Source of the DNA: Obrimoposthia wandeli
Lineage: Eukaryota
Length of the DNA stretch: 56,501 nucleotides
Assembly: GCA_977020255.1 (NCBI GenBank)
Contig: CDROCS010001491.1
Location: 441,500-498,000, forward strand
Reading direction: 5' to 3'
Position numbers and translations under genes: made by a program. Positions 1-22,245 of this stretch are shown in pieces. A model generated the notes under the pieces. It did no database searches. It was not told where the DNA came from and was given only the letters and a program-made list of their open reading frames with translations. Each line of letters opens with the position of its first letter. Position 1 is the stretch's first letter.

Positions 1-1000
1 ACTAGGAAATTGATAAACTACAAGTATAAGTGAAGGAATGTTAAGTTAAAACCTAGCAATATGCAGCTACACACGTATTTTAATAATAAAATTGATTTCT
101 ATTATCATAAAGGATTGATTCAAAAGGAACAGTTATATCAGAAGATGGTTTAGAGAGACTGTCAGTTAAACAAGGAGATCATAAGAACTAAGTTAGCACT
201 AGCTATTTCAAATCCATACATGGCAGCACCACTATTACCTCTAGGCGAAGGAGTATTTGCTAAAACCATGGGATAAGTACTGTATAGTTATAAGTACAAA
301 AACGTAGTGGTACAGTTGAGAAAAACAGAGCGATGCACAAGCGAATTGCCAGTGACGTATAATTTAAAATCACTCTTTGTAGAACCTATCACGAGAATGA
401 TACTTCCTAAAGACACTCCAACAAAAGAAATCAGCTGCTCCAATTATGGCACCTGAATATCAGATGACGAGTGATCTATGGATAACTTTACCTGACCGTA
501 AGCGAACAGCGACTCCAGAGATAATAAAAATGAGGACACTTAAAGAAAAAATGAACTTAAAAGCGGTAAGGAAAATTGAAAATGCAGGTTTATACAATGA
601 GAAAGATCTAAAAACGGCCTGGAACGAAATAATGTTTCCAGTAATAAGGACCAGAGTACTTATGGAAATTGTACATCGTGCATTACCACCAGGAGCTAGA
701 TATGCGAATTTTGATATGATATTGTTGCCAAATCATTTCAAAGAAGCAGCACATCAGACACTTAGGAAAATGTGGGGAAAATTCCTTGTTTTAGGACAAT
801 TATTTTCAATTATCATATAGGTTTTTATATTATAATTAAATTAGTACAGGTAATTATAGCTCAGGTGTTGTCTACATATAGTTTGTACAGGATAACCGGA
901 ATCACTTGGCAACTTATAATTGGATGTTTTCCATTTTTAGCGAAATATCTAATGTATCATCATCACGAGAATGAGTTACGAGCCATCAAGAAGGAGCAAC
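1..1000 (+). pseudogene. Chuvirus/Monjiviricetes-like fusion glycoprotein (env-like), C-terminal half with TM region; disrupted
   Basis: Frame +1 reads DCQLNKEIIRTKLALAISNPYMAAPLL..GEGVFAKTMG*VLYSY...VQLRKTERCTSELPVTY..KSLFVEPITRMI, frameshifts into ORF 446 (MAPEYQM...GLYNEKDL...IMFP...WGKFLVLG) and ORF 772 (hydrophobic FYIIIKLVQVIIAQV...GITWQLIIGCF). Pattern recognised as chuvirus-type glycoprotein; stops at 31, 151, 274. Confidence 0.8.
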
Positions 1001-1304
1001 ATCAAGCTAGAACTATACTACGAGAACCAAAGAACCGCCATGACGACGACAACGACGATAACGATAGTCCAAGAGACTATACAAAAATACCAAATACAGG
1101 ACATCCAAAGATCCCACTAAAAAACAAGAAGGAGCCAACACCAAACCTATATCCAATGAAGGAATTGAAGGAAGAGAAAGAAATGTTCAAGAGAGGCATT
1201 TTAATGATAAGACGGCCTAGAGTGAACTATAATGAGATTCCACAGAAAAAGATTTTAAAAATAATTCCAGAAGAACTCTGAAGTCTAGGATATCTAACGA
1301 GAAT

Positions 1305-1592
1305 CCGAATGATCCACCACAAGTAGCAGTAACAATGAACGGAAAAGAATATCTTACCGATGTCGATACTGGATCTGCAGTATCAGTACTGAGTAAAGAA
1401 ATCTTGTCATCAAAAGAATTAGAGGAAATATGTCCTAGGAAACAAACATTTGTCTACGTAAAGGGAACAGATGTAGTATCAGAAGGAACACTGAAATGTA
1501 AATTAACTATTGATGGAAGAGCATTGCAGATAAATGCCAAAATATTCACAGATTGTGGTAGTCCAGTCATGATTGGAATGGACGTGATATGA
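1305..1592 (+). pseudogene. Retropepsin-like aspartic protease (copy 1)
   Basis: PPQVAVTMNGKEYLTDVDTGSAVSVLS ... SPVMIGMD: catalytic DTG and distal IIGxD-like motif. Confidence 0.85.
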
Positions 1593-1859
1593 ATGTTTGA
1601 AGGAATAATAATAGTACCAAACAACAAGAGTTCAAAGAACAACAGTTGAGTGAGAGAGCTAAAGATGTTGAGAAGATCTACAGATAATGGAAAGACTACA
1701 CTAGTTTATATATAGGAAACATGTACCGGAACAGGAGACAGGAAGTGTTAGTGAGGTCGTTAATTCATTAAGAAGGAGTAAATGACGAACTACAAGCAAT
1801 GCGTAAGAGGGAATTATAATATGACACATTGAGAAACAAGGATCCTTCTAGATTTGAAA

Positions 1860-2870
1860 AGCACAGACGAAGATCACTAGAACCAAATTTTTCAAAATAA
1901 ATATTATGCAAAATGGCGAGAACTGGTTTACAAATGTTAAACGGAGACACGACTGATGACTCTGGTTTTAAAAAAGTAGTACGTTATATAAATTGTAGAA
2001 TGAATTTTAGAAATTGGGAAGACGTATATAACCCAATGAAACTATATAAATTGAAAGCGCCAACATGGCCATTCCTCCTAAACCTGAGAACTGCAAATGA
2101 ACCAGAAATTCAAACTGGGAAAGCACCTGACTTTGACAATAGTGATCAGATTCCAGAAAGAGAAACAGCCCAAATAACAGGCATGTGATAAAAAATAGTC
2201 GAATTGAAGATATATTCGAAGTAATGCGAGAAATAAACGAATGTGACGAACAATATCGAAAAGTAACCTTTGAAGATTCAAGACTTAAAAAGCTGGCAAA
2301 TAAGGGACTATTTGCTATAAAAAAGGATGGTAAAGAAGTAATTAAATGTCATAAATGCAAAAGAAACGAATTATTGATAGATATACTCTTGAGTTACCTA
2401 AAAAAGGTTTACATCATTTACATACATTTAAAAAACAAAAAGAACCAAAAACAGAATGTATAGTTGAATACCAAATAACACGAAAAGATATTTTGGCTCA
2501 ACAAGACACACTAGTAGTGTCATTCGTGAGAAGATTATATCCAAAAGAATCAGACAGGATCAGAGAATTGGTAGAATTGAAAATAAAAATTACACGGAAT
2601 GGATACGGATCAATTTTTGAATTATTACGAGATAAAAATGACAGTACAATTGAACCAAAGGAGAAAGAGTACATAAATGAATTAGAATACATGCTGGAAG
2701 ATCCGGAATGTGCAGTTTGCATGATCAACAAAGTAGAAGTTGCCTTTTTACCGTGTGGACATGTGAGAACATGTCGGAGATGTGCAAACGAAATGTTAAC
2801 ATGTCCGATTTCTAGAAAGATAATAGATCGACAAGTGAGAAATATTAGATCTCACTATCCAAACAAAGGA
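1860..2870 (+). pseudogene. IAP-like module (BIR, divergent BIR, C-terminal RING) inside the retroelement
   Basis: BIR1: RRRSL..KMARTGL...VR[Y]INC-X16-[Y]-X6-[W]PFL, exact BIR spacing with three Zn ligands each one base change away; BIR2-like: YRKVTF..KLANKGLF..VIKCHKC; RING: CAVCMINKVEVAFLPCGHVRTCRRCANEMLTCPISRKII (IAP-type C3HC4). Confidence 0.82.
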
Positions 2871-2929
2871 AGTGGACCGACAAAATGTAATAATTCGATA
2901 AATACAATATACCATATGGGAAATATAAA

Positions 2930-3030
2930 TGGAGCACAGCGACCAGCAGCTATCATTAGAGTCAATAATTTGAAAATAAAAGCCTTAATTTACACGGGCG
3001 CAGTAACATCGATAGTGAGTGAAGAAGCAC
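2930..3030 (+). pseudogene. Second aspartic protease remnant fused by deletion to the RT-RNase H connection
   Basis: IRVNNLKIKALI[Y]TGAVTSIVSEE (D to Y in DTG) followed directly by AQQALEDLKVRLIKAP. Confidence 0.75.
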
Positions 3031-4680
3031 AACAAGCGTTGGAAGATCTAAAGGTAAGACTGATAAAAGCACCGATATTAGCGTTTCCGGATATAAATCG
3101 ACAATTCATACTAATGACAGATGCAAATAACTATGCTGTAGAAGCAGTATCAGGACAAGAGGATAAGTAAGGAAGAAAACACGTCATCGCATATGCAAGT
3201 ATATGGTTAAATAGAGTAGAAAGAGGATACTCTGTTATCGAAAAGGAATGTCTAGCCATAGTATATTCATGTAGACAGTACAGACACTACTTGCTAGGAC
3301 AAAAAGTATTCCTGTATACAGATCACAAACCACTACAGTTCTTGTATAAACATAGAGACGAGATGAGCCAATTAAACCGATGGTTTCTGAAATTAGCTGA
3401 ATTTAATCTAGAAATCTGATATAGAACCGGAAAGTCGAATGGCAACGCAGATTGTTTGTCGAGATTTGCCAATGTAGATGAAAAAGGAAACATTATTCAA
3501 TAAGAAGGTCAAGGTGAAGTCAATGACCAGGGAGGAGAAGCAAATATACAGACAAATTTGCTGAAAACAGTAAAATAGACAAATAAATCATCAAGGAACA
3601 GAAGGAAGATAAAGAATTGAGTCTAATCAAAGAACTGTTAGTGAAAGAAGATCTAAATGATGAAATGACGAGAAAATACTCGATAAAAGAAGGAATATTG
3701 TATATTGTCAACAAAGTCGGAAAGATAGTAGTAGTAATTCCGAAGTCATTGAGAACGGCAGTGATGATCCAGTATCACGATGGAACACTGGGAGGACATC
3801 TGTCAGGACGAAAGACAATATCGAGAATTAAAGAGAAATACCATTGGGATGGTATGGAAGACGAGATAAAACAACAATTCAAAACCAGAATGCTGAAACA
3901 ATAGCACAAATCCTGGTAGAAGAGATAATATTTCGATATGGAGTACCTAGAAAATTATTAATTGATCAAGGAAAGAATTTCACTGGAGAAGTAATAAAAG
4001 CAGTATCGAAGATATTCGGAATTATGAAGTTACAAACTTCACCATATCACCCACAAACTGACGGTCTAGTAGAAAGGTTTAATAAAACTATCTGTATGAT
4101 GATACAATCTTATTGCTCCGATAAGCAAGATGATTGGGATAAGTATTTACCTTCATATTTATATGCTTACAGGAATTCAGTTCGAGAGGTGACGGGCCAC
4201 ACACCATTATATCTGATGTATCTCAGACAGAACAATATGCCAATGGATCTGGAGTGGACCCAACCAATATCTCAGTACCTAGAAACTGAAGAATACATTG
4301 TCGTCATGAAAGAAAGACTACAAGATTCTTGGACTAATACAGGGTTGAAATTGAAATTCAATCAAGAAAATTACAAGGAACAATACGACAAGAAAGCAAA
4401 ACCACACGAATTTAGAGTCGGAGATCAAGTGATGCTATTCTATCTAGTAATCAAACCAATTATATCGTTTAAACTTCATAGACCATACAAAGGACCATAC
4501 AAGGTGATACAGACAACCTCAACAAATTTGAAAGTAATCAACGAGGAGATCAGGAACAAAGAACCGATGATAGTACATGCGAACCGATGTAAACTGGTAC
4601 CGAATAAAGATAATGCGTCACGATATGAGCTACAATCACAGAAATTGAAGCCGAATACCAATACAATTAAACTTACATGA
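3030..4680 (+). pseudogene. Pol remnant: RNase H, integrase Zn-binding region and truncated integrase core
   Basis: Motifs as above; RT core (YxDD) absent; integrase lacks the segment between EDEIKQ and IQNQNAETIAQ. Confidence 0.9.
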
Positions 4681-5204
4681 ATGGTAAGTGATCGAAACTA
4701 CATAAATACGATGACAAATGGTAACGATGAAAAACCAATGATAATTGGTATGCTCAGAATGAAGCACCAAGTGGAAAGAGAAGTAATCCGACACATCGCA
4801 CCACAAGAGATATTAGAAGAAGACGAAGAGATCATAGTCGTTTTCGAAAAACAAAACCGACAGATGTAGCGAAAGAAGTTATTTTGAAAGATGCATTAAC
4901 AAAGAAAATTCTGTGTGAACTTAGAGTGTCATATTTCGATGGAAATACACTAGTCGTGGAACTTCATCAAAACTCCAATGTGTTTATGTCTGAGAAAGTG
5001 ATCATAGAAATCTCACTGACACAATGGCAGAACTATGACAGTACAGAAATAGGACTAGTCGGTCAGGAAGAAAAAGAATCAGCTGGTGGTCATATACTTC
5101 ATGGTACACTGAAAAGACTCAGACAAGAATACCATGATCTGATAATGGTATTACGTAATCCTATGAATATTAAAATAAATTATATTAAATGTAAACATAC
5201 CTAA
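4681..5204 (+). pseudogene. Unassigned accessory ORF(s) downstream of integrase
   Basis: Two near-contiguous ORFs with the same A-rich composition as the element; no recognisable motif. Confidence 0.35.
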
Positions 5205-6079
5205 ATATTTCGAAATTAAATTACATATTTTACCTACAACAATTTCTGGAGTATCAATTTTTGAGAAGTTATTTTTTTTATAATCTTCCATTAAATCTGG
5301 AGATAATTTAATGTTTAATTTATTCCAATTTATTTTATTATCCATGTTATAAAAATTATTATATATAAAATTTTTATATTTAATATGCTGATGCAAAATA
5401 TTCAGACAATTATGTAACATATTTAGACAATTATGTAACACTATATATAAGCAATAAAGACAAAAGAAAAAATAATATTAAAAAAATTTTTTTTTGCCTC
5501 TTCCGGTTTATTCTGGAGGATTCTCTTTCTTGCAGCTCGCCGATTGTCCTCCATCTCCTCTCTTATTTTTTAATCCAGTTTTTTTTAACCAATTCAATTT
5601 TTTTGTTTCACTCCACGATCCGTTGTAGTTCTGCTAGCCACCTGTCCTGAATCTCCACTCTACTATTCCACTCAGTCGCGACATTTGTGTAGAGATTCTG
5701 ATTGAGGAACCTCTTTCTTAAATCCCCTTACTTCTAATTTCTCCTGATATTTTCTTCTATCTTTGTCACGAGACTTTTCATTTTAATAAATTCCATATTT
5801 TAATTATGAAAAGGTTAATAATATATATAAATTTAAGATATTTTTAATCCAATCACATTCAATTAAATTTTATATTTTTATTTATCATATGACAGTTTAA
5901 TAAATCTATAACTAATCATTGCATTTCTATATAAATTTTAAACTTTAAAAAAATTTAAAAACATGTAGAATTATTCCTAATTAATCCAATCACATTCAAA
6001 TAAGTTAACTATTTTTTTCATCTTGATATTTTAATAAACTTAAATATTGTATTTTAATATTACCCTGTATATATGTATT

Positions 6080-7350
6080 GCTCGTTAGGCCATGGCGGGC
6101 CTGAAAGGCACGCGTTGGCCCTTAGATGGCTTCTCAGGCACTTCCTCACTCTGAGGGAGCACTATGAGATTTTCAATTTTAAAGGGTGTTAAATGGGGTT
6201 AATTAGTTTTTCAGGGTGTTGGGCGGGGGTAGGGTGATAGAAAATTTCACTCCACACACATGTACTCCGCACACATACTCAAAATTTCACTCCACATACA
6301 TGCACGGTTTTAAAGGACAGTGGTAGCCCCCCCGGTGGAGGGAGGAGGAAGTGGATTAGATCGGACACATCCACCTACTAACTATATGTTGTATCTCCAA
6401 ATTGTACAAATTCGAATCGTTGCCTTTAAAACTTACAATCTTCAAATTCTATAAATTGTTGTATAATCTCCAAATTCTATATTCATTAAAAGATCCACGA
6501 TGGGGATATATCAAAAATCAAATTGTAACCACTAAATTGTTGTCAAATATATTTTGAGAATTACTTATTGATAAATTGTTTTAGATGAAATTGTGTCACA
6601 ATAATGTTAAGTTGCTTTAAGTCTGCAGTTTTATAAGGGATACATTAGTCCGATATGAAGAAATAATATAAGCAAAACAAAAATGTTTCAGTCTGCTACT
6701 GCTGCAGAAAGTGGGGGTAAATGTCGCCATAGGTAGGGAGACAGCGAAAGGGATAATTGCTACAAAATAGGGCAGATGGAAAAACTGCAATTCCCAAGCC
6801 AGCTTCGACTGCAGAAGGACCAATCCGATTCCGGATCACAGAAGAATATCAGTTCTAGGTCCGTATGCACAATATAAATCCCCACAGCATTTGGGCAGCC
6901 AGAGATTAAACTGCTTTGGAGATAGTGGCAGGGAGTTAGAGAGGGATGGAAGAGGAGTGGGCATTAGAGAGGCGGTCGATGCTGCTGTCCGAAATGTCAG
7001 ATGCAATGGTCCGTTTTGTAGTTTCCGTGCATGGATGATGGAGGAGGATGATAAATGTGATACCGTGAAGGTAGGCAGAGAACGCTACCAGTTGGATCCG
7101 GGTAGTTTCAGAGCGGTTAGGCAACCGATCAGGTCTAGGGCTGCCCGAGACAGAGAGGCCGCTGCTACTGGGTGGTTAATATTTTGAGGGTTAAAACCGC
7201 TTTACTTTTTTGTCAGATTTATCTCTGACATTTTGCCATCTCCCTGATGAGGCCAAGGTAGGCCGAAACGGGTTTATCCCGTCGGAGGTTGACTTAGAAA
7301 AATACCTCCCTGATTAAGGGCACCTCAGCAAAAATGTCAATTTTAATTGA
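6080..7350 (+). mobile_element. Non-autonomous hammerhead-bearing retroelement (Penelope-like pLTR or retrozyme-like), putative
   Basis: GC-richer island bounded by a degenerate hammerhead-like motif (6081-6123) and an intact one (7239-7289) with weakly similar downstream sequence; no RT or GIY-YIG recognised. Confidence 0.45.
7239..7289 (+). ncRNA. Type I hammerhead ribozyme
   Basis: CTGATGA (7244-7250), stem II GGCC/AAGGTA/GGCC, GAAA (7265-7268), stem III ACGGG/TTTAT/CCCGT, GTC cleavage triplet (cut after 7283), stem I ATCTCC (7238-7243) pairing with GGAGGT (7284-7289) with one G-U. Confidence 0.92.
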
Positions 7351-7439: not shown

Positions 7440-7690
7440 ATAACTATAAATAACTCCAATAAGACCATCGTTTTGCTTCAGTAAACCCTTATGTTTATCA
7501 GTTGCCCTTTTCACATTAATAATATTACGCAAATCCTTGCGATTTTTTCGAAGTTTTGATTGTGTTTAACGATATTTTACAAAACTTCAACTGATCTATT
7601 AATTACAAAAGATTTCAAAGATTTCAAAATAGCAGGTCTAAATAGCAGGTGTGGCTTTAATAGAGTTTGAAAGTATAGAGTAACTCTGTT
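7440..7690 (-). pseudogene. Polinton small basic core-like protein (QKGGF-type), decayed
   Basis: NIVKHN..KLRKNRKDLRNIINVKRATDKHKGLLKQNDGLIGV; homologous to ORF 31067 (DIVKGKV...RQKGGFIGALL). Confidence 0.55.
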
Positions 7691-8039
7691 GGACTGCATT
7701 ATTAGAAGCGGTCGATGAGTTTACAGGTTAATTTTGTTAGTTGGATTATTATCATTCTGTTTAGGTGTGTTGTTCAACTTTTACCATTTCCGTAAAATTA
7801 TTTACGTTTTCTTGACTTTTTTGTCAAGCTGACTTTTTCTTAGGCTGAAATATTGATGTTACAACTTTACGTTGCTTAAGTACACAGCTTATAGTCGTTT
7901 TCACTTCATTATTTTTCTTAACAGCTGATTCTCGTTAATTTTAATATAATCATCAGATTTATATTTAGAAGCTGTAGAAAAGGCATCATTTCATTATTAA
8001 AAGACATAATTAATGGTTTTAAACGCGAGTCTTTTGATT

Positions 8040-8600
8040 ATAAACATAGGCATTTGTGAAAATATCTGTTATCACAAGTATATCATTGCGATATCCCGGT
8101 TAAAAATCCAGAAACAAATAACGGGGGATTTCTACGTTACATCTTTAAATGCATCAATTACATATAATCTGATATAGGGAAAAGATTGTCATGCAGCAAA
8201 ATCAAAGACAGTCTGATCTCTCAGATTATAAACTAACATCAAATAATGCAAGTTCAAATTTCTAGTACGATGTTGACTACCTTGATGAAAAATGTGTGTT
8301 GAAACATAGTAACTGTAACATGCATATGCTTGGAAATCGTTGTAAGTATGATTAACACTTGCGCCTTTATTAGCTTTTTCATACAAATCATCAAAAACAA
8401 CAACATTTTATATTATTTTAACATATCTGATCAATTTCCATCAAAACCATCAATGAATTTCACCTGGTTTACAAACACTACCATAATGCCAATAGATTTT
8501 GTCAAATTTATCATAAGCTTGTATTATCTTGTATTATTTGATTTCAAAATGGGTTTTACCACTACCAGATTGTTTTTACATACTTTTTATTAACAAATAC
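8040..8600 (-). pseudogene. Polinton genome-packaging ATPase (A32/FtsK-HerA type), decayed
   Basis: Walker A QSGSGKTHF, Walker B VVVFDDL, then THIFHQGSQHRTRNLNLHYLMLVYNLRDQ and YLFLDF motifs. Confidence 0.88.
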
Positions 8601-8871
8601 AAACATGTTTTATTGAATAATTTAATTTATGAAGATTTTGTTTAAGATAAATATTGAGTAGCTGTCCGGTAATGCAGGACATATTTTCTCGCACGAAGTC
8701 AAGACCACTTCAAATTATCTAGAAGCAATATCTAGGTCATAAAAATAAACTCCCCAACTTTTATTTTGCATTTAAATTTGAAATGTGTTTATCGGTATGA
8801 GTATGTGATTGCCTATCATTGATTAATGATTTTGGCATATCAAGTTTAAAATTTAAAAGGTGTGTTTTCAT

Positions 8872-9326
8872 ATTGAGATAGCTAATAATAATTATAATGG
8901 TTTTGTATATGGAGATGTTAGTCATTTGCTTTACAAACGAGGTAAATAGTGTGTATGTTTAAAAATTGCACAGATTATACGCTTGTTATTTTCAGATCAG
9001 ATGATTATTCAATTTGATTTCTTTAATTATTATTAGGGAATTGAAGTATAATTGATTGTATGGTGCCATTTGGTAGAGAACGTATATATTATCCAACTAA
9101 AATAAATGTTAACTGTATTCAGTCAGTCACAGAAACTGCAAACCTGAGTAAAATAATCAATCTCATCAAATTATCTTAGTTCATGAGTTCAACATGCATG
9201 TTTAAACCAGAAATATTTCCATCAGTTAGATGTCTCAAGTACAATCCTCCACATGTAAATATATTTAGAAGTAATACAGTCATTATTTTCCGATTAACTA
9301 GTTTAGACTATTACCTTAAGATTTAG
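8872..9326 (+). pseudogene. TBP-like protein, Polinton-borne, copy 1
   Basis: DYTLVIFRSG...CIQSVTETANLSKIINLIKL...CMFKPEIFPSVRCLKYNPPHVNIFRSNTVII, alignable by eye to both TBP repeats (TALIFSSGK; IQN...IRL...YEPELFPGL...LIFVSGKVV). Confidence 0.75.
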
Positions 9327-10135
9327 CAAAGGTATGATTTTTCAAGACGGTGTCGACTTTAGATAATGAGATAACTTGTATATTTTTTCGAACTACATTA
9401 GAAAATTGGTCACGCAACGATTAACCAATGAAACATCATAAGAAAATTTGTACTGTATGTTCATTCATTATAAAAATCTATGTATCTAATAAACACACGG
9501 TGGTTAAACAGGGCGAAGATATTATAAATTTTGATAAAACTCCATTGGATAAACCAGTTGTTCGTAATAATGATTAAGATCATATTGTAATTTCTATATG
9601 ATCGATTATTCCACATGTATATATTTGAATTAATTTATATCAGTATTGTGTTTGTCAGAAAGTAGTACGTCATCTTGATTGCATTGCAGCTATTCCGGGA
9701 GAAATTTCTTATATATCAGAGGGACCTAGTATAGGTATCAAGAATCCATTTATTGCCGAATAATATTTAATATGATTAAACTATTATTTAAATAGACACT
9801 CGCCAGATAAATCTGTTGAAACGTTATTACAGTCTAAATAGAATAAAGTCAGTTTAGTAAATATTTCTCTAACACGGGGTAAACATTAAGACTCAACATG
9901 TGAATTTCTAATCAATTTAACATTTTTACAATTAAAAACTGAAGACAGGGTTGTAAATTATCTTGAATATTTATTACCAGATCCAGAATGTGTTGTTTGC
10001 ATGTTAGACATGATTGAAGTAGCATTCTTACCATGTGGACACTTAAACACATGTAATAAATGTTCAGTCGCTTTATTACATGCCTATATTGTAAGAGATT
10101 TATTATACAGGAATGTATATCAGATTTCATGGTAA
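9315..10135 (+). pseudogene. IAP-like gene (BIR + RING), Polinton-borne
   Basis: DLAKV*FFKT..DNEITCIF[F]RTTLENWSRND*PMKHHKKICTVCSFI fits BIR C-X2-C-X16-H-X6-C with the second C mutated; RING DPECVVCMLDMIEVAFLPCGHLNTCNKCSVAL, then frameshifted CLYCKRFI. Confidence 0.85.
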
Positions 10136-10269
10136 AACAATTTAAGGTTTATAGACTGTTGAAAAAATAAATTACAATGATAAAGTTGAACATGCTGGTA
10201 ATGAAATAATGCGTGGAAGTGTTGTATCAAGGAGGTATTTTTCAGCATTACTGAAATGCAATCGATACC

Positions 10270-12285
10270 ATGTCAAGGCATTTGTCTGTACATCGAGAAT
10301 TTGTAAAAAAAGAAACATACACTATCAACTTTTCATTAAATTTTATGAGCAAAGTTGGTTGTATGATTCCTGAAGCAGAGACTGCAGCCAGTAAAGTATG
10401 CGAAAACGAAATATTGATGCAGAGCTGTCGGCGCTTGATGTATCCAAGGTCAAACCTAAAGCTTCATTACATCTACTCTTTCATTTTATTATGGTTTATA
10501 TTATCATAAAAGTCTCCTTATTAAAAAGTATAATGCCATAGCTACTGTTGCTACTCTTGGGAAATTTATTTTATACTCCAAACTTTAGAGAAATATTTAT
10601 CTTTAACTGCATATGCTGAATTCTCTGCAGTTTTTGAGCGGCTCTTTAAAATAATTAATGACATATTTAAATGGCCAATTACACAGTCAGTGTTCCCAGT
10701 TTCGATTAATGATAAGGAGATTTTTCAATATAATTTGTGAAAACTTTCACAGATTTACAAAATACAACATAAATCAACCCATAACTGCATTCGAGAGTGC
10801 ACGTCTTCAAGACTCTAATGAGGTACTTACATTTTGGGATTGTAATTGTCAAAATCTTGTTGAGTCTATGCTTTTTTATATGAAGTTAGACATTTATTTA
10901 TTGGCTGATTTGTTTGAGTTTTTTCCTGTAAAATCTTTAGCAGAAGATGGGCTAGATCCCATGCATTTTTTTAATTTACTTGGTCTTTCATGGGCAACGG
11001 CAATAAAAACTCCTTATATTAATGTTGAGTTATTGCAAGATCCTATGATGTATCAAATGTATGATTATGATATACGCGGTGGAATGACTTTTGTCAACAA
11101 ACATCATGTTGTCAAAAATCAATCCATGGAGATTCTGTACATCAACATAATTAATTTGTATAGGTGGGCGCTTACTCAACCTCTACCACATGCCAACTTT
11201 AAGTGGATGTGTGATGTGGAAGAGTTGAATAAGTTGATGACAGATTTGCCTACTGTTGATACAGTTTCGTCAAATGTCGGCTATTTGGTTGACGTCGATT
11301 TAACAATCCCTCCTAATGTGCATGATTAATTGTATGATCTTCCAGTGCACCTATTCATCAATGTCCACCTAATTTAAAGGTTAAAAAATTATTGTTAACA
11401 CATGAAGACAGGTTGAATTACGTGTTGCATTGGCGGCTTCTTCAATTCTATATAAAGTAAGGAACAAAATTTACTCGAATTAATCGTGCTATAAGCTTTA
11501 GTCAAAACCTTTTGTTTAAAGACTATATTTAGAAAAATTCTAGAAAACGTTATTTGGCCTGTAGCAATTCAATCGACATTTAAAAATCTTTGAAAAATCT
11601 GTAAAGGACTTGCGGAAACGTATTTGTTTACGATTTTGCTATAATGAGTGCAAACTAATAACATATATTACCAAGTACAACTTCAAGCATATTTACCATT
11701 GCAGATTACTTGGTAAATTTTTTTTATTAGGAAAACAGAGTATTGTCACGATCGATTGAGTTATGTAAATCAAACTGTATTAGGTATTTCAAACCCTATA
11801 TTGTATGGGCTCCAATATATTGAATTATATAAATATCGCAATGAATTCAACTGTGAATTCAAACACTGACTCTTTCTTTTTACAATCTAGAAATGTTAGT
11901 TTACAATATCTGTTATTTCTGAAAATGTTTAGGGATAACTTACTTGATACCCATAAATATCCTGTTAATCATCATTTACACTGTAGGGTCAGATTTTGTA
12001 TGATGACTGTATTTTCCTACGCCTTTAATGCTACAGTTTACATACATCTAATAATACATATTCAATGAGAGCAAAGGGTGTGGGAAGAAACAATCTCACC
12101 ATGAGGCCTACCGGAAAGTGTATGATACTGTATGTAATGAAAGCGTTGAGCAAACTAAATTTATTTTAAGACCCAATCAACAGTATTTCCATAAGTCAAC
12201 AAAAATTGTTGTGAGTAGTTATGACGACAAACGCTGTTGGGTAGAAAAGAACGCTGGTCTGGCTTATGGACATTTCCGAATTTAA
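10270..12285 (+). pseudogene. Protein-primed DNA polymerase B (pPolB), decayed
   Basis: YMKLDIYLLADLFE...GLSW...IRGGMTFVNKHH...INLYRWALTQPLP...GYLVDVDL; C-terminal RAKGV...SSYDDKRCWVEKN..LAYGHF. Confidence 0.92.
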
Positions 12286-12551: not shown

Positions 12552-12918
12552 TTAACCGTTTTGTAACGATAACCATAAAATACATAAATGTCCACAGTTT
12601 CTCGTTGCTGGATCCTGGTATTGTATCATGTTGTAAAATACTCTTCTTTGTCCTTTTTGAACAGTCGAAACAAGCTTATGGGGATAATACGTTGCAAGTA
12701 GATCAAATACATGTATTGTCCACTCTTTAACATAAATAGCTATACAATGTTCTATTGGTACATTCAAAGTGTGAGTATTGATAATGTAATCTCCATGTTG
12801 AAAAATGGAATCATATCCATTGAATTTATCACCCAGTACATTTTCTTTTGATTCTATTACTTGTACTGAACTAAATTAAAATGAATAAATATTAATTATA
12901 AAAAGGATCTTACTTCAT
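12552..12918 (-). CDS. Polinton adenain-like cysteine protease; open after splicing a 43-nt intron (exons 12918-12914 and 12870-12552)
   Basis: MN|SVQVIES...IINT...IEHCIAIY...FD...QYQDPATRNCGHLCILWL (H, D, Q, C catalytic set); intron GTAAG...TTTAG; starts just after the MCP stop. Confidence 0.78.
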
Positions 12919-12919
12919 T

Positions 12920-13330
12920 CTATAATATGACAGTTCTGTTTTCGTTGATTTGTATTTCCCAATCAAATACACCGTAAATAAGCACTGTAGTAGGATTTGA
13001 TAAAGCTGTATTGAATTGAATTTCTAAACGTAAGTTTACATCTTTAGGTTGTTGGCATTGGTTTATGTCAAAGTCTGGCGCTAAAACAAATGTGAAGAAC
13101 GGACAGCTGCTTTTAAACTCAAAGAAATAAATACCATTGTTTATATTTTTTATCTAGTTGACCAATATTTTGAATAATAAATTTCGTATAAGCCAAAGCA
13201 AAAATGTTACTTTCGTAATATGTTTTATAGCTTTTACGATAATTGCTATTTCTTAAAAGTGTTACTGAATCCACATTAAGATTATCAAATTGAGTTACAT
13301 ATGTCGTATAATTTCCTAGAAACTTTGCAG
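12920..13330 (-). pseudogene. Polinton major capsid protein, C-terminal part
   Basis: FLGNYTTYVTQFDNLNVDSVTL...FTFVLAPDFD...NLRLEIQFNTALSNPTTVLIYGVFDWEIQINENRTVIL*. Confidence 0.82.
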
Positions 13331-13397
13331 TTTTTTTAAAATGATGTTAGGATTAGGATTTTAAAAATTTTCAAAGAAATAATTAATTGTTATATAA

Positions 13398-14896
13398 TGT
13401 AATAAATTCTTGAAAGCAAGGTTGAAAATGAAATAAATTTTAAATGGAATTATAAATTAAATAATAAAATTAAGAATTATTTTGGGACCTTGAAAGTTCA
13501 TGTATAGTGTGAGATGTGTATAAAAGTTTAGGGCCCGGGAAATTACAGGCATAAAATGTCAGAAAATACATTTTCAAAGAAAAAGCCAAGAAGATAAATC
13601 AAGAAGAAATTATCCAGTGGTCAACAGAAGAAAATCAAAAGAAAAGAAAATAACAGCCTGGTGGGAAAGAAGCAGCTGTTGATCGAGAAGCACTTACCTG
13701 GAGAGACGATCGAGACAGACATCGATTAACTCTGAGAAGAAGCCAGCCGGCATCCATTTAGCACAGTAAGGGCACTTAGCCTAATTGAATTACTTGATTT
13801 ATAATTTAGGAACTTATATAAAACAGAATTCAAGAGTCATCACACACAAAATTTCTCGAAAAATAATTCTCGGAAAATTCTCTGGAAATTCAAAAATTGA
13901 GAAACTAGCAGACTCCGAAAATCAATTGAACGAGAATAAAAGAAAAATCACCAAGCAGAAACTACCAACGAACGCAAGAAGCCGGAGGTGATTAATTTTC
14001 AGAAACAGAAGGAGATTAATCGGTTAACAAAACCCAGGTAGGAAATCAATCTCCATCGATCAACAGAGCACGATGAACTCAACGGAACCAGCAGTCGAAC
14101 TCAGTGAACCGCCGGACTAGTCGTGTGATCTCGAAGAGAGGCTTCTCGAAAAGAGATCACGGTAAGTTCAGAGTGTGAGCGTGTTGTTGAAGGTTATCAA
14201 AAGATAACGAATTTGAAATAAGGTCATTGGAGAAACAATAATTTAATATAAATTGCAAGTGTCCATATTTGAATTAAAGTTGTCCATATTTTTGAATTGA
14301 AATAATTTGATAAAATCGTCTATATTTTGGAACTGAAATAATCTGATAAAATCGTTTATATTTTTGACTTGAAATAATTTTATAAAATAGTCTATATTTT
14401 ATTTGATAACGTTAAAAGAGTTAACGTTCAGTTAAATTGCCCACATTTTGTACGATAAATCATTAAAAGAATTTAAAGCTTAATTTGAATTTGATAAGAC
14501 AAATTAAAATCGATACGTAAGACATCCCCATTTGTGCGAAGTTGTGAAGAGAAATTAGGACTAGTTGTTGTCAATTTTTAGAAACGTAACTTAGTGTGTT
14601 TTAAAGAATACAGTTTCCTATAATTAGTCAGCGTTGTTTGAACAAAACCCCTAGAATCAAACAAGCACCAGATACTCCATACATTACACGACACTAAGGG
14701 AATTTTTCCAGTGCCGTTTACACAGCTCTTCACACATCTCCACAACAACAACAACAAAACCTTCAGAATAGACATTGAGACAGGTAAGCACAATCTAAGT
14801 AGGCCACAAACAACTGCAAGCACTACTTCTATAGAACTCACGTTGGGGGCCTCCATACGAGGATCTATTTAAGAGTTTCAAATAGAAACCCCAACA
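13398..14896 (+). mobile_element. Solo LTR-like element (family A, copy 1) inserted in the Polinton MCP gene
   Basis: TGTAA...CAACA ends; near-TSD ATAA/ATGA; MCP frame resumes on both sides; shares CTTGAAAGCAAGGTT, AAAATCGATACGT and terminal GAAACCCCAACA with the copy at 26327-29302. Strand is arbitrary (purine-rich strand). Confidence 0.75.
14298..14400 (+). repeat. Short tandem repeat (~36 bp x3) inside the LTR
   Basis: TGAAATAATTTGATAAAATCGTCTATATTTTG repeated with variation. Confidence 0.8.
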
Positions 14897-15600
14897 ATGA
14901 TATTAAAAGGAATTTCCGCAATTTTACGTCACCAAAATTTTGATCCTTATTAAGAGCTTACGTACCCGTACCCAAAGAGTATGTTTTTAAGTTTAGTTTT
15001 TCTAATAAGATACCAAGCATTGTTTTTTTCATTATTATATTATGTGCCATTAAAACAGATTCCTCGGTTTTAACTCTTTGGACATAGTTTCGCATCCAAA
15101 ATATCAAGTCTACGTTTTAGAACGTCTGTGCTTATCAAAAAAAATCATTTATTGCGTTTCAAACGAAGATATACATTGTACATTAACACCAGGAATTTAA
15201 TATTAAGGTTGTCCAAAGACGTTTAGTCTCATAGACCCACACATTTCGTACGCAATCCATTCTTTACGAGTTGCTACCGTTTTATCAAAACCAATGGTTA
15301 CCAAATTAATATTTCGAGTATCAGTACTATAATTCAATAGATTTTCAATCAAAGCTTTATGAGCATGGGAAGAATTACCATCTCGATTAGTTACTATTAT
15401 TTGAACATAAGGCTAAGTATCATTCAAATCTAAATAATTACTATTGGAACCAATTATATTAAATTCTAAATCGGTTAAAGTCGTTCCTGAAATATTAACT
15501 AAAAATATTTCTTCAAAGGAAGCATTATTTACAACTACTTGCGGAAGAGGTTTATCAAATATTGTTCATTCAACTTTCTTATATTTGTTTATATTAATTT
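14897..15600 (-). pseudogene. Polinton major capsid protein, N-terminal part
   Basis: IFDKPLPQVVVNNASFEEIF..LEFNIIGSNSNYLDLNDT...IENLLNYS...LDILDAKL..RVK. Confidence 0.82.
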
Positions 15601-15900
15601 TTTGCTTCTTTTTACGTTTAAATTCTCTATCTTCTTGGCTTTTACTTGATTTACCTTTTCTAATTAAATTAGCAACGCCAGGTAAGACATTATCAAGTTC
15701 ATTAAGTGCAAGCTTCTTAAAAGTTGGTATTAATTTATTATCCTTATATGAAAGGTAGACTTTTTTGAATTTTGATATAAATCGTCCGAGTTTCTTTAAA
15801 AGAGGAAAGACAAATCTACTTAATGTTCTAAGCTAGCCGGATCCATATTGTTTATCGACAAAATATGGTGATTCTCCACATTCTTGGCTTTGACTATAAG
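15600..15900 (-). pseudogene. Polinton core-like protein (QxGxG type), decayed
   Basis: PYFVDKQYGSG*LRTLSRFVFPLLKKLG, located between mCP and MCP. Confidence 0.6.
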
Positions 15901-15906
15901 CTTTAA

Positions 15907-16936
15907 TTATTGCCGGATTCGTAATTTTGTTTTTTTTAAATGTATTATTAAACTTGTCTTGGTTCCGTATGTGAAATCTATTAGTTGTCCGTAATCATCT
16001 CTATTATTTACCTCAAAATTGTTTATAGACAAGAGAGCAACTGGAAGATACGTCGGTTGATCTATACTAATACCGATAACTTCTTTAATGCTAGTTTGAC
16101 TTTGAGATATCCTTATTGTTCTCAAAAGTGGAACTCGTAGTCCTCCTACAAGCGTTGGTTCTATTAAACTAGTATAAATATATAACCGATTAATAGCATT
16201 TAAAAGTTTTGCCCGATTTTTAGCTTTTATGGTTTTTACTGTATGTGTTTCAAAGGTCTTTCCAGATAAACCTAGGTTTTTAGCAAGTTTATCATCAAAG
16301 GAAACCCGTTTTATCTTTACTGTAAAAGTCGTTTTATCATTTTTTTAATGTTACACATTTATTTCAATATTCACTGAATTCCTTCATTATAAATTTGCAT
16401 AAATTCACTTAACTATCTATTTTATAATATTTTTAAAACCTTTTCAGTTCCAGTACATATTTAGATATATTTTCAGGTAACAGCAGTTTGCTACTTTACT
16501 AGGAAAATATCTAACAATTTAGATGAGACAATATCTTGTTTAAAATTACCTATCGCATATTCATTAACAAAACCGAATTGAAGAGCTTCTTTTTATATTC
16601 AAAAGTCCAATGAATAAATTCTTATCGATTTTTAAGTATGACTTTGTTATTTTCCTATAATACTTTCACTTCTTTATCTATACAATTGAAATATAATTTT
16701 CCTTTGCTATAAAACCCAATCATAACATTATTTGCTTCATCATTTTGTAAACGAAATATGCGATTTTTTGGTGATAGTAATTGGAGAATAATAAAAAGAA
16801 AATTCTGTTAAAGCTGCTTCCTATTCTCCTTGTAGATTTATAGGATTTTCCCAATCGATAATAAAGCTACTAACATCATTCTCTGGCTGAGTCTTCAGCA
16901 TCCGTTACTAGGTAAAACCATATACGAAAATTTCAT
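15907..16936 (-). pseudogene. Polinton minor capsid protein (penton), decayed
   Basis: N-terminal YMVLPSN...ENDVSSFIIDWENPINLQGE*EAALTEFSF; C-terminal LYIYTSLIEPTLVGGLRVPLLRTI...PTYLPV...RDDYGQLIDF; ATG overlaps the integrase stop (ATGA). Confidence 0.82.
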
Positions 16937-17510
16937 ATTATATTAGATGCTGATATCCAAGTGGTATCTGAATAACCATTCCATTTAACAAAGTATTGTT
17001 TATGTTTACCATTACCTTAGATTTTAATATTTTTTGAATACGTTTATTTTATATGACTTGTAGTTCTTGCTCGTAAAATTTACCCTGAATGATATTAGTG
17101 TCATCATATTGAATAGTATACATTATTGGATTACTTTTTGGATCAATTTTATTTATACAAAATATTTCATCGCTCCAATTCTGATCAAAAATTTTGATAA
17201 ATGGAGTAGAGCTCATTTTAGAAATTCGAACATATTCGTTTTTCTTATATTTAGTTTTTTTTATATTTTCTTTTTTATTCCTGTCTATCCAAATATCCAT
17301 AGAGTTTCTATTAGTAACATCAACAGGTCTTATTCCCTTGAAACTTCTATGTTCAGAGTGATTATATGCATGTACTATTTTGGGCAAAACTTGGATCCTT
17401 TTTTATTTCCTTCTTTTGTGAAATACTTTTTGATTCAATTTCTTAAAGTACGATTAAATCTTTCTACTACTGCTGCTTTGTACTTTATGTTGTCAGTTTT
17501 ATATTAGGAA
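16933..17510 (-). pseudogene. Polinton integrase C-terminal half with chromodomain
   Basis: KAAVVEKFNRTLRN...LPKIVHAYNHSEHRS..IRPVDV...VRISK...NWSDEIF...IQGKFYEQELQ; chromodomain IQKILK...QYFVKWNGYSDTTWIS. Confidence 0.9.
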
Positions 17511-19459
17511 TTATATTAAAAATTACTCAATAGAGATAAATAAAAAACTTATAATTTGAAATAATAATATCATAGCCTACATTGAAATATACTTTTGTTA
17601 AATGAATAGTATTATAAATAAATGAGTTAGATGATTAGAAACTTAAATTTTGCGTTTCATTTTAACATTTTTTGTCATTTTGGAAAGTCAAATTAAGATT
17701 AAAATTTTAAAAATTAATGATAATTTTTTAAAAATTTTAAATTAATAGGTACAGTTTAACATTTTAACTTTAATATATTATTTAACTAAATCTTAACAAA
17801 ACATATATAATTCATAATTTTAAATGAATTTTTAAATTTATAACAAAGTTTTTTTTTAAATTAAGAACTTATCATTTTCACAAGAAACATGATTTGATGA
17901 ATGCCTATGATTTCTAAATGTATATTAATAGTTGAAGAAAAAAATTTAATTAATTTTTATTATTAGCATATTGTTTGGAAAGATTAATTTAAGCACTATT
18001 TTAAAATTAAAGAACTAAATACGTTAAAGTATTTTCGAAATATTCTTTTAAGATTTGTTTTTTAAAATCAGTCAATTTCTGATCTTTTTAAAAATTGAAT
18101 AAACAATATTTCAGTTATAAAGACAATATTAATAATTTATTTTTATTAAATCAATCTTCATAAATGCTAATATTTTTTATAGAATTTCTTTTTGAAAACT
18201 AATTTTATCCTTATTTTTATTTATAAAATTATCAACTATTTATTTTTTTAAATGTATTATGGTTATATTAGAATCAAAATGGGAATTCTAAAGAAATAAT
18301 TGTAAATTGATACAGATATATATTATAAATTCAATTTCATATAAATTGATTACTTTAAATTTTATAGTTTTTTCTTTATAATTCCTACTAAAAAAATGTT
18401 TTTTTTAATATAAATTTAATAAATTCATATTTATTTAAATTTTAGTAAAATTATAATAGAATAAAGATTTTTTTGAAACGGGAATTCAAAAAATAAAATA
18501 AATAATAAAGTGCCTTCAATTTAAATGACAAAGAAATGATACAAAACGTCAGGAAATATATTTTTAGTCATTTTAAAACCTAGTCAGTGATATATTGTTC
18601 AAAGTTACCGTTATGAAAGTAAAATATGTATTATTTAAAACAGAATCAGAAAATTAGAGTGATACGTAGGAATTTTTATGAAAAAAATGTAATTTTTTTG
18701 ATAAAGTTGATCAAAAGTGTCGGTACTTATTTAGAATTCTCCAACTTTTAATTAATATTATTATAATAAAAATATCATTTTAATCATATGAAATATTTTA
18801 AAATTTGTCTATATTATACTATTAAAATTTTTATTTATCTTTCAAAATTTAAATTTTCTTGAAGTTAGCACTTTTAAGCCAGTTGATGTATATAAGTTTA
18901 GGTTGGCTTTTTTATATATTCAGATAAATTCATTTAAATTGCATCTAAATAAAAAAATTCGTCATACAATTTTAAAATCATATGAATTTTAATTACTTAA
19001 TAAAATTGAGAATTGATTCTGAATAAAAACCAAAATGACCGATTACCGTTTAATCATTGCTTTTCAATTTCTTGTTCAACATGTATATTAAATAAATAAA
19101 ACGAATATGTTTTTTAAAATGGTAAAAATTTATTAAAAAATATCTGATTTTTTTAAAAATGTAAATAATTAACACAATATTACTTTGAGATTTATTTGAG
19201 GGCACTGTGAAATTATAGGATCACGTTTCTTTAAAGCATATAGAGTTGCCACTTTTTATAGAATATCAATAAATAAACATTCACAACGAGTCAAACAAAA
19301 ATAAAACTAACTTTAAAAAAATATTATGAAAATTTGAATTATTTAAAAACCCATATGAACATAATGTGTAATTTAAATCGTAAGGCTATTTTAAATATAT
19401 TCTTTAAAAAAGATTTTAAGATACCAACCTAATAAAAATCTAAGTCAGGCTAGAGTAAA

Positions 19460-20968
19460 ATGTCAAATGTAAACAATTCCATGCTATTTTCCTTATCGTC
19501 CGAAGTAAATGGCATTGACAAGTGTGCAAATGATATCGACAATGTATTTCCAATTAGAATAAAGTCAGAACTTAAAGCATATAAGAAATACCAAAATAAG
19601 TTGAAGTTTAAAAGTCATAGATGTTCATATAATTTGTCTAACATACCGATTGATAATTTGTGGTTAGAAGTCCAGACAGCTAAGTTTCAAAAAACCCAAA
19701 AAAATAATCAGGCTGGGTTTGTAAATGTATTCAACAATCTTAATAATTATACCTCGGAAGCTCAATTATTTTTATTACCACTGATATACTTTAAATTTTC
19801 GTATGAGACTTTAGAGTATAATGAAATCAGAACAGAGTTTTTCCCTATAATATCTGATTGTACCGAAAAATATTACGTGTTTACTGAGCATTCTTTCCTG
19901 TCCAGATTGGAATCTAATATCAAAAATGTTAATTCTAATCTGGTGTATGAAATTCAAACCAAAATAGCCCTTATCCAGATTCCGAGTTGTTTCCACACAT
20001 ACTCGTATCCCAAATATATCAGAGATACCATATTCAAAAAGAAAAGGTTGATTACTAACCGTAATTTTACTCCTCCGATGAATTCTAATGCCTGCCTCTC
20101 TTATGAATCTCCGGAAACTGACAAGTCTTCAAATAAGGTCTGCAGCCTTTTCAATGCCGGCTCTATATCTTCATCGATGGGCTCAGACATTGATAAGATC
20201 CAGTTTGGTGCCGTGTTTGCCAACCAAAACAATATCCAAAATCCGGAGCTGTTGAATTCATTGCCAAAGCTCTGGAACCAGAATCTTTTGATATCAATTG
20301 ACTACATTCTTCAAGCATCTGTTATTCCAAAATCGTGGATTATTCTCTTTCAGTTTTCGGACTATTATGTAGATGTCATCATACAATCATTGCTTCGCGT
20401 TTTCATTTTAGAGTCAAACTCGTTCTGTAAAGTCAACCGAAAAACCAAGAAACGGAATATTCGCAGTTCAAGCTATAACATAATTCTCCGGAATTCTCTA
20501 CGAAATCTCTTCAGACAGGTTCAATCAAGCATCATGGCGTCAACTTTAAAGGTGGCTATCGATGATTTCTTTGAAGAGAATTGTTTGAAAGGGCATATCT
20601 TCTCAAAACATGGTGTGTGCAGGAAGAAATTAACTGAGAAAACATTCGGAAGAAAGGAACTGTTGACTAAACATTCCACTGACTTAGACCGCAGATTGAA
20701 ATTAAAGAGGGACTTTCAGAACAGTGGTATTAAGAATCGACGATTGACGAAGTACAGCTCTGCGTTTCAGTATGCAAAAGAAAGAGGCAAGTGCAACTCT
20801 CAAACTGTTCTAAAAGGAATCGAAAGGGCGTCAGAGCAAGATCTGAATTCAAAGAATCGGAACACGTTAGCCTCGAAATTCAGAATGGAAGGTGATGTCA
20901 CCAATCATTTGACACAGAAGCTGCGCAAAAAAGCTGTTAGTTTGTGTACTTTCTTTTTGACTTTTTAG
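19460..20968 (+). CDS. Hypothetical protein (502 aa), no recognised domain
   Basis: Longest non-repetitive intact ORF, AAAATG start context; a possible terminal intron from GTTAGT (~20936) to TTTGTAG (~21014) would end it ...KKA|IFSM*. Confidence 0.6.
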   Translation: MSNVNNSMLFSLSSEVNGIDKCANDIDNVFPIRIKSELKAYKKYQNKLKFKSHRCSYNLSNIPIDNLWLEVQTAKFQKTQKNNQAGFVNVFNNLNNYTSEAQLFLLPLIYFKFSYETLEYNEIRTEFFPIISDCTEKYYVFTEHSFLSRLESNIKNVNSNLVYEIQTKIALIQIPSCFHTYSYPKYIRDTIFKKKRLITNRNFTPPMNSNACLSYESPETDKSSNKVCSLFNAGSISSSMGSDIDKIQFGAVFANQNNIQNPELLNSLPKLWNQNLLISIDYILQASVIPKSWIILFQFSDYYVDVIIQSLLRVFILESNSFCKVNRKTKKRNIRSSSYNIILRNSLRNLFRQVQSSIMASTLKVAIDDFFEENCLKGHIFSKHGVCRKKLTEKTFGRKELLTKHSTDLDRRLKLKRDFQNSGIKNRRLTKYSSAFQYAKERGKCNSQTVLKGIERASEQDLNSKNRNTLASKFRMEGDVTNHLTQKLRKKAVSLCTFFLTF

Positions 20969-21954: not shown

Positions 21955-22245
21955 AAAGATTATACTATAGTTATATTTCCATCAGGTATTATTATTACTA
22001 TTATTAATATACTACTATTTAAGCTATTGCATAATTATGAGTTGCAAACAAACATGTTAAAAATATAGAAATTGAATGATTTCAATCTCTAAGTATCCAA
22101 GTAAATATCAACAAAAAAGTTAATTTGTGTAAGGTATCTGTGAAATTGGGAAGAAATTGTATGTTTGAACCAGAATTGTTTCCAGCACTCGGAATTTTAA
22201 AAGGTTTACGACTCAATTGTACAAGACTAGTGGCCCTAATAATTT
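21955..22245 (+). pseudogene. TBP-like protein, copy 2 (partial)
   Basis: KDYTIVIFPSG..CIIMSCK...FQSLSIQVNINKKVNLCKV..GRNCMFEPELFPAL. Confidence 0.78.

What the first reader, a model, noticed from the sequence alone, without database searches (positions are those of the whole stretch)
9315..10135. Polinton-borne IAP (BIR + RING) between the TBP-like gene and pPolB
Seen: BIR with correct spacing and an IAP-type RING in a co-oriented TBP-IAP-pPolB block. Known: IAPs are standard anti-apoptotic cargo of baculoviruses and other large DNA viruses. Inference: a host-manipulation module supporting a true viral life cycle for this Polinton lineage.
Basis: partly seen in the sequence, partly recalled or inferred. 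Interest (0 to 1): 0.75.

Follow-up and report, generated by a model that had tools for sequence, protein, structure and literature searches.

The report
Decayed Polinton-borne copy of host IAP
This is a broken copy of a cell-death-inhibitor (IAP) gene carried by virus-like Polinton transposons, an intron-free version of one of the animal's own genes; a giant retrotransposon in the same genome carries the same gene, so two unrelated kinds of jumping gene likely use one captured gene to keep their host cells alive.

Summary
The BIR and RING are real (both above Pfam cut-off), but this copy is dead: 9 stops, 5' end deleted, a BIR cysteine lost, a frame break in the RING. The IAP is regular cargo of an old Polinton family, not a one-off insertion. 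'TBP-IAP-pPolB' is not the family order. In 14 of 32 sister copies the next gene is the ATPase; here TBP-IAP is inverted and abuts a truncated pPolB of another, IAP-less family. The likely donor is a single-copy host IAP with at least six exons on another contig. Its intron-free descendants occur in four Polinton families, two with open frames and dN/dS about 0.25 between lineages, and inside the polyprotein of a Burro-like Gypsy element. Polinton IAPs form one clade, were swapped between two families, and sit in both inverted repeats of a polymerase-less family. A Burro-to-Polinton hand-over is favoured but not shown (support 83-85, alternatives not rejected). IAPs in Polintons and in Burro are each published; one shared donor was not found in print. 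The gene is no evidence of a viral life cycle.

The parts
9320..10135 (+). IAP pseudogene of Polinton family C: BIR - degenerate second zinc site - UBA-like - RING; 5' end deleted, 9 stops, frame break in RING
9320..9470 (+). BIR domain; ligand codons at 9377 (C), 9386 (Phe in this copy), 9437 (H), 9458 (C)
   Evidence: Pfam PF00653 30.6 bits
9644..9725 (+). relic of C-x2-C-x18-H-x3-C site (likely a degenerate second BIR); 1 of 4 ligands left
   Evidence: alignments; Pfam finds 2 BIR stretches in the Burro homologue
9760..9920 (+). UBA-like helical region (weak assignment)
   Evidence: intact sister aligns to cIAP1 3t6p 116-167 at only 2.2 bits; helices in low-confidence model
9989..10110 (+). 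C3HC4 RING; six ligands in frame, last pair in another frame
   Evidence: Pfam PF13920 33.6 bits
10155..10291 (+). 5' part of an 88-aa ORF that precedes the ATPase in families A-E; cut by the inversion break
   Evidence: no Pfam or Atlas assignment
9027..9323 (+). TBP-like gene, family C, broken (DNA homology from about 8790)
8031..8655 (-). packaging ATPase of family C with its upstream sequence, inverted relative to TBP-IAP
7598..7702 (-). pX-like core gene fragment after the ATPase
10460..10548 (-). fragment of family D just upstream of and into its ATPase start
   Evidence: 82-87% to family D copies
10554..12106 (+). 3' part of pPolB of family D; 5' part (over 1.2 kb in sisters) missing
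12570..17485 (-). family D protease, major capsid (interrupted 13342-14895), PZ, minor capsid, integrase
1742..2855 (+). homologous IAP (B-IAP-like) between two aspartic proteases of a decayed Burro-like Gypsy element (about 400-5200)

Best explanation
The stretch is a dead, rearranged copy of an IAP gene carried by Polintons, an intron-free descendant of a single-copy host IAP that likely entered mobile DNA through a reverse-transcribed mRNA and that, in active elements, likely blocked death of the cell in which the element was expressed. Shown: domains, decay of this copy, family gene order TBP-IAP-small ORF-ATPase, the local inversion and chimeric junction, the spliced host homologue, intron loss, one clade of Polinton IAPs, purifying selection between lineages, a swap between families A and E, absence from family D. 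Inferred: the RNA step (from loss of five introns); one early capture by a Polinton; the route, most likely from the Burro-like retrotransposon (about 55%) rather than from a separate retrocopy; the function, a BIR-recruiting RING ubiquitin ligase that dampens caspase-dependent death after integration or replication stress, by homology to Burro1 B-IAP as described second-hand.
For: Pfam. Neighbour counts: ATPase next in 14 of 32, further same-order genes in 5, pPolB in 2 with different start points, opposite ATPase upstream in 0 of 39. Host gene G000:C369 about 346150-359200, six exons found, GT/AG seen at the exon ends inspected, 72% identical to family A over the BIR exon, and ending FHGIN like family A; single copy among 150 scored hits. 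Trees: Polinton+Burro+P0001 apart from 36 cellular IAPs 100/99; Polinton IAPs one clade 98/95-100/98. dN/dS 0.25 (0.18-0.37) B vs B2 and 0.26 A vs B; window vs 11 sisters 0.55-0.89 with changes even across codon positions. Synonymous difference A vs E 0.15-0.20 in IAP against 0.56-0.96 in core genes, 6 of 6 E copies. Burro-like 4,722-aa ORF: CCHC, chuvirus-like env, PR, BIR, RING, PR, RT, RNase H, IN, DSPc. Burro keeps stretches that all Polinton IAPs lack, so the sampled Polinton alleles cannot be its donor.
Against: Burro+Polinton support fell from 98/94 without the host gene to 66/48 with it, and rose to 83/76 and 85/83 with one more host exon. The alternatives are not rejected (AU p 0.07-0.08 for Polinton+host, 0.19-0.21 for Burro+host). 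Site patterns favour it for B and C (9-11 vs 1-4 vs 2-5) but not for A (8 vs 4 vs 7-8). The root rests on one unnamed protein (P0001). No expression or activity data. Families A, B and the host lack the acidic residue found at one BIR groove position in 7 of 8 cellular BIR2 domains printed, whose role in caspase/IBM binding is recalled, so direct caspase binding is doubtful. Family D spread without IAP. dN/dS is from a simple counting script on AT-rich DNA with an identity filter.
Confidence: 0.78

Rival explanations
1. Two independent captures: Polintons and the Burro-like element each picked up a separate retrocopy of the same host IAP, with no exchange between them.
For: Burro+Polinton clade never starred once the host gene is included; AU p 0.07-0.32 for the alternatives; family A is as close to the host (41%) as or closer than to Burro (35%).
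Against: Shared states of Burro and Polintons against host and P0001: (S/P)NVP after the BIR, INxL before the RING, VRN/VRT vs VRG/VCG at the end. The best tree joins them in every analysis. Family B also carries a DSP domain like Burro's (32% identity; not resolved).
Confidence: 0.4
2. One reading: a TBP-IAP-pPolB early-gene module that marks this lineage as a replicating virus, like baculovirus IAP.
For: Families A and E combine IAP with capsid, ATPase, protease and integrase genes, and A also has pPolB; IAP was selected; IAP homologues are reported in adintoviruses.
Against: The block is a chimera; IAP is absent from capsid-bearing D and present in pPolB-less B and in a retrotransposon; no related locus in viral contigs (close relatives only); this copy is dead.
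Confidence: 0.1
3. The Polinton IAP works mainly as a ubiquitin ligase or decoy in immune or silencing pathways rather than as a caspase inhibitor.
For: RING and UBA-like region are kept in all families, while the second zinc site is lost in A and the BIR groove acid varies.
Against: The homologous Burro1 B-IAP is reported to protect stem cells from caspase-mediated apoptosis (PMC13465017 passages citing Lee et al. 2026; primary paper not read).
Confidence: 0.2
4. The IAP is a passenger duplicated with the element, without benefit.
For: Family D is abundant without it (6,292 first-look candidates); young copies within family A show dN/dS above 1 with wide intervals.
Against: dN/dS 0.25-0.57 in most comparisons between lineages; open frames kept across A and B; lateral swap into or out of E.
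Confidence: 0.06

Closest known systems
Accessory IAP homologues of adintoviruses/Polintons (PMC8502044; passages, supplement term search; preprint 10.1101/697771 passages)
   Same: IAP as cargo of a capsid-encoding Polinton.
   Different: The passages seen give one sentence and a figure label, no donor, phylogeny or flatworm case (0 hits for Schmidtea, planarian, Dugesia, Girardia in a supplement that was cut when stored). Here the host donor, intron loss, family swaps and loss are traced.
Burro/Burro1 giant Gypsy elements of planarians and their B-IAP (PMC6431247 passages; PMC13465017 passages; Lee et al. 2026 Dev Cell not held)
   Same: About 5,000-aa single ORF with Gag knuckle, in-frame mononegavirus-like env, PR, BIR and RING; the BIR-RING region is homologous to the Polinton IAP over its whole length.
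   Different: Class I element, IAP embedded between two proteases; the Polinton IAP is a stand-alone ORF. The ORF scanned here gave no MATH, BCL2 or ankyrin hit at E<=0.001 and has DSPc, so it is Burro-like, not shown to be Burro1.
Cellular RING-type IAPs (cIAP1/BIRC2, XIAP, DIAP1/2) and baculovirus IAP3
   Same: BIR plus C-terminal C3HC4 RING; best PDB matches are cIAP1, NAIP, DIAP1, XIAP domains.
   Different: One canonical BIR plus a C-x2-C-x18-H-x3-C relic; only domain-level similarity to all database hits except P0001. Baculovirus IAP architecture is recalled, not tested.
Non-autonomous Polintons/Mavericks
   Same: Family B has AG..CT ends, long inverted repeats and 6-bp target duplications and lacks pPolB.
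   Different: It keeps the capsid, ATPase, protease and integrase genes and carries IAP, TBP and a DSP-like gene twice, in 4.0-4.8 kb repeats. The class definition is recalled.

Membership tests
RING-type IAP | BIR domain above Pfam cut-off | tested here: met
   30.6 bits in the window copy; 51-54 bits in intact A and B
RING-type IAP | complete C-x2-C-x16-H-x6-C zinc ligands | tested here: not met
   second ligand is Phe in this copy; complete in intact A, B, Burro
RING-type IAP | C-terminal C3HC4 RING | tested here: met
   33.6 bits; last Cys pair out of frame in this copy
RING-type IAP | open reading frame | tested here: not met
   9 stops, 5' deletion; open 301- and 341-aa frames in families A and B
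RING-type IAP | IBM-binding (type II) BIR | tested here: inconclusive
   all element BIRs score best as BIR2, but so does the survivin-like control; groove acid variable
RING-type IAP | blocks apoptosis / E3 activity | not testable with these tools
   needs bench assay
Polinton/Maverick cargo | linked to Polinton core genes in independent copies | tested here: met
   22 of 32 non-B copies have a Polinton gene next downstream, 14 have TBP upstream; 28 of the top 30 BIR loci have Polinton neighbours
Polinton/Maverick cargo | this copy lies in one intact element with pPolB, integrase, TIRs and TSD | tested here: not met
   chimera of families C and D; no long flanking inverted repeat among those listed
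Polinton/Maverick (family B) | TIRs with AG..CT ends and 6-bp TSD | tested here: met
   2 of 2 elements tested: 15,542 and 15,650 bp; the third is nested and was not tested
Polinton/Maverick (family B) | pPolB between the TIRs | tested here: not met
   none by tblastn in 3 of 3 elements
Polintovirus (true virus) | virions or free genomes | not testable with these tools
   capsid genes present; no particle data
Burro-type retrotransposon (Gypsy at 400-5200 and sisters) | giant single ORF with Gag knuckle, in-frame env, PR, BIR, RING, RT, RNase H, IN | tested here: met
   4,722-aa ORF on C1883; frames to 4,985 aa
Burro-type retrotransposon (Gypsy at 400-5200 and sisters) | MATH, BCL2-like, ankyrin domains; LTRs and about 30 kb length | tested here: inconclusive
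   no Pfam hit for these at E<=0.001; HHpred-level search and LTRs not tested

The most novel reading that the evidence does not exclude
A giant LTR retrotransposon captured a host IAP and handed it to Polintons, a class I to class II transfer of an anti-death gene. It then became a swappable cassette among Polinton families and was doubled in the inverted repeats of a polymerase-less family, so that many intact Polinton copies add to the anti-apoptotic dose that Burro B-IAP is reported to give planarian stem cells.
Probability: 0.35. Interest if true: 0.8.

Novelty: new variant of a known kind. Interest (0 to 1): 0.55.

Why it matters
How Polintons, which have no reverse transcriptase, acquire host genes is open. 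Here the spliced donor, the intron-free copies in two element classes and a later swap between families can all be read in one genome. If the host is a planarian (inferred from the Burro-like element, not verified), the reported benefit of Burro B-IAP to stem cells may have a second, unrecognised source in Polintons, which RNAi can test. It also shows that an IAP is no marker of a viral life cycle.

Tried and rejected
TBP-IAP-pPolB as family order: rejected. IAP inside the repeats of family D: rejected; no IAP in 4-5 kb upstream of pPolB in the family D loci fetched. Assembly error at the junctions: not supported. AlphaFold model of the family B ORF: mean pLDDT 49, only the BIR matched in Foldseek; it says nothing on the middle site. 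BIR typing: inconclusive. One tree run timed out. Viral contigs: no related locus, close relatives only; metagenome contigs were not scanned. Protein database: one full-length relative only, P0001, unnamed; its top score is by construction. The profile search of cluster representatives never returned (ticket still queued), so distant relatives stay unsearched; the Atlas did not answer for the linker. No RNA holder listed. Small 88-aa ORF as Bcl-2-like: no support. Polinton DSP derived from Burro DSP: 32% identity and one short linker match (1 of 1,000 shuffles, one of five tests), unresolved; host DSPs were swamped by element copies. Ten literature searches found no report of a planarian Polinton IAP or of an IAP shared by Burro and Polintons; PMC10748475 has no IAP or TBP mention; Lee et al. 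2026 could not be read and may cover this.

Full report
Observation. Read with stops as X, window 9200-10135 (+) passes Pfam cut-offs for BIR (30.6 bits) and the IAP-type RING (33.6 bits). The copy is dead: the frame 9320-10069 has 9 stops, the second BIR ligand codon is Phe, the last RING Cys pair is in another frame, and about 210-230 bp holding the start are missing compared with sisters. The 'CVC' segment is the relic of a C-x2-C-x18-H-x3-C site, intact in family B, the host gene, Burro and P0001. Pfam sees two BIR stretches in the Burro homologue, so the site is likely a degenerate second BIR.

Gene order. A DNA search of the own genome (1.35 Gb) gave 1,788 candidates, 40 scored. I fetched 10 kb around the 39 other places. 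Seven belong to a younger family (B); 32 are old copies, 69-80% identical to the window, here called family C (one, L057, may be a B variant). Of the 32, 14 have TBP upstream. The next gene downstream is the ATPase in 14, integrase, pX or capsid in 5, pPolB in 2, another Polinton ORF in 1, nothing recognisable in 10. None of the 39 has an opposite ATPase upstream as the window does. The four IAP-to-pPolB cases seen (two in this set, two fetched later) start at different points in pPolB, so they are separate deletions. In the window the TBP-IAP block is inverted against the ATPase, and the break cuts a small ORF that normally lies between IAP and ATPase.

The pPolB belongs to another family. 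All 39 other hits to this region start at window 10553-10555, and sisters carry over 1.2 kb more pPolB upstream. With the protease, capsid and integrase genes to 17485 it is 80-89% identical to family D, and the window integrase groups with D while the window TBP and ATPase group with C. Family D runs TBP - small ORF - ATPase with no IAP in 11 of 11 informative loci (12 fetched, one truncated; one has a nested family B copy 4 kb away). The junctions are spanned by short-read contigs of run X1 (possibly the source sample). 'TBP-IAP-pPolB' is therefore a local chimera.

Spread. The BIR search gave 12,110 candidates, 150 scored; 28 of the top 30 loci have Polinton neighbours. Family A has an open 301-aa frame in the order TBP-IAP-ATPase, with all core genes and pPolB. 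Family B has an open 341-aa frame in both 4.0-4.8 kb inverted repeats, no pPolB in 3 of 3 elements, and 6-bp target duplications in 2 of 2 tested. Family E has an A-type IAP in a distant backbone: synonymous difference to A is 0.15-0.20 in IAP against 0.56-0.96 in the core genes, in 6 of 6 copies, which shows a swap. IAP-less D is sister to B in the backbone tree (100/100), so loss in D is the simplest reading. dN/dS is 0.25 (0.18-0.37) between B and its variant, 0.26 between A and B, 0.38-0.68 between A and seven variants, and above 1 with wide intervals for two young A copies. Window against 11 sisters gives 0.55-0.89 with changes spread evenly over codon positions, as expected for decay after insertion (simple counting method).

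A second carrier. The Gypsy element at window 400-5200 holds the same BIR-linker-RING between two aspartic proteases. Younger sisters have open frames up to 4,985 aa; one 4,722-aa ORF reads CCHC, chuvirus-like env, PR, BIR, RING, PR, RT, RNase H, IN, DSPc. This matches the description of planarian Burro elements (PMC6431247, passages), apart from MATH, BCL2 and ankyrin, which Pfam did not find. The host is thus likely a triclad flatworm; I did not verify this. Burro1 B-IAP is reported to protect stem cells from caspase-mediated death (PMC13465017, passages citing Lee et al. 2026; the primary paper is not held).

Donor. The only full-length database relative was unnamed P0001. Its N-terminus led to a spliced gene on G000:C369: six exons over 13 kb, GT/AG at the ends inspected, single copy among 150 scored hits, 72% identical to family A over the BIR exon and ending in the same FHGIN. 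All element copies run straight across its five introns, which points to an RNA step that a Polinton cannot perform itself (established: Polintons encode no reverse transcriptase). On BIR+RING columns, elements plus P0001 separate from 36 cellular IAPs at 100/99 (columns chosen with a profile built from the element proteins; 8 of 22 C rows, four near-duplicate intact rows and two gappy cellular rows left out). With the host gene, Polinton IAPs are one clade, (A,(B,C)). Burro joins them at 66/48, or at 83/76 and 85/83 with one more host exon; the alternatives are not rejected (AU p 0.07-0.32). Site patterns favour Burro+Polinton for B and C but not for A. Burro keeps linker and N-terminal residues that all Polinton IAPs lack, so if there was a hand-over it ran from Burro or a common retrocopy to the Polintons. 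I put the hand-over at about 55%.

Mechanism. Shown: domains, descent, selection, swap, loss. Inferred: expressed from active elements, the BIR recruits death-pathway proteins and the RING ubiquitinates them, keeping alive cells stressed by integration or replication. Direct caspase binding is uncertain: BIR typing was inconclusive, and A, B and the host lack an acidic groove residue found in 7 of 8 cellular BIR2 segments printed (its role is recalled). The structure model was too poor to help, and the UBA assignment is weak. In S. mediterranea, Polintons are piRNA targets and are de-silenced during differentiation (PMC8532177, passages), so expression is plausible; no RNA holder was listed here.

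Known and new. IAP homologues in adintoviruses are published (PMC8502044, passages and a cut supplement), as is BIR/RING in Burro. Ten searches found no report of one host IAP feeding both classes; Lee et al. 2026 and its supplements may bear on this. Two unchecked notes of this scan describe IAPs in the arms of palindromic Polintons in other genomes; they are leads only. Family names A-E are my own labels.

Verdict. The lineage it belongs to is interesting: a traceable host IAP shared by a retrotransposon and four Polinton families. Interest 0.55; new variant of a known kind.

Noticed in passing
G000:C873 (L115-L116), C777 (L113-L114), C609 (L111-L112): Young Polinton family B, about 15.6 kb, with 4.0-4.8 kb inverted repeats 99.1-99.9% identical that each hold IAP, TBP-like and DSP-like genes. 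The core has ATPase, pX, integrase, capsids and protease but no pPolB; 6-bp TSDs in 2 of 2 tested. About 49 of 150 scored BIR hits have its 341-aa open frame (hand count).
   Followed up: partly
L231, L243, L245, L246, L225, L250 vs family A: IAP (with the small ORF in some copies) is far closer between families A and E than any flanking gene: a cassette swap.
   Followed up: yes
window 400-5200; G000:C1883 (L261-L262): Burro-like Gypsy with chuvirus-like env, two aspartic proteases flanking the IAP, and two DSP domains after the integrase; open frames up to 4,985 aa in the genome.
   Followed up: partly
L111:6888-7622: The family B DSP domain lacks the usual HCxxGxSR motif (recalled), so it is likely a pseudophosphatase; 32% identical to the first Burro DSP.
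   Followed up: partly
G000:C369 346150-359200 (-): Single-copy spliced host IAP with one canonical BIR, a C-x2-C-x18-H-x3-C site and a RING; likely orthologue of P0001 (45%).
   Followed up: yes
L061 (C694), L129 (C6834): The only two non-element hits among the top 30 BIR loci: a survivin-like ORF and a BIRC6-like exon (names from recalled motifs).
   Followed up: no
window 10155-10291; L117:8726-8989; L186:7006-7275: Conserved 88-90-aa ORF with a hydrophobic C-terminal tail, directly before the ATPase in all five families; no assignment.
   Followed up: partly
window 21765-23555, 29345-35137, 55704-56414; 5150-6400: Further decayed Polinton fragments (TBP-like, pX, integrase, pPolB; family D accessory region). 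Polintons are often nested or adjacent in this genome.
   Followed up: partly
window 52483-52881 (-): Exon of a host axonemal dynein light chain gene (Pfam PF10211, 118 bits).
   Followed up: no
window 19454-20968 (+); 26940-28440: A 504-aa open frame with no Pfam hit, and a 68-75-bp tandem array.
   Followed up: no
window 13342-14895: A 1.55-kb insertion that splits the family D major capsid gene; absent from sisters, with ends that recur near other Polinton copies.
   Followed up: no
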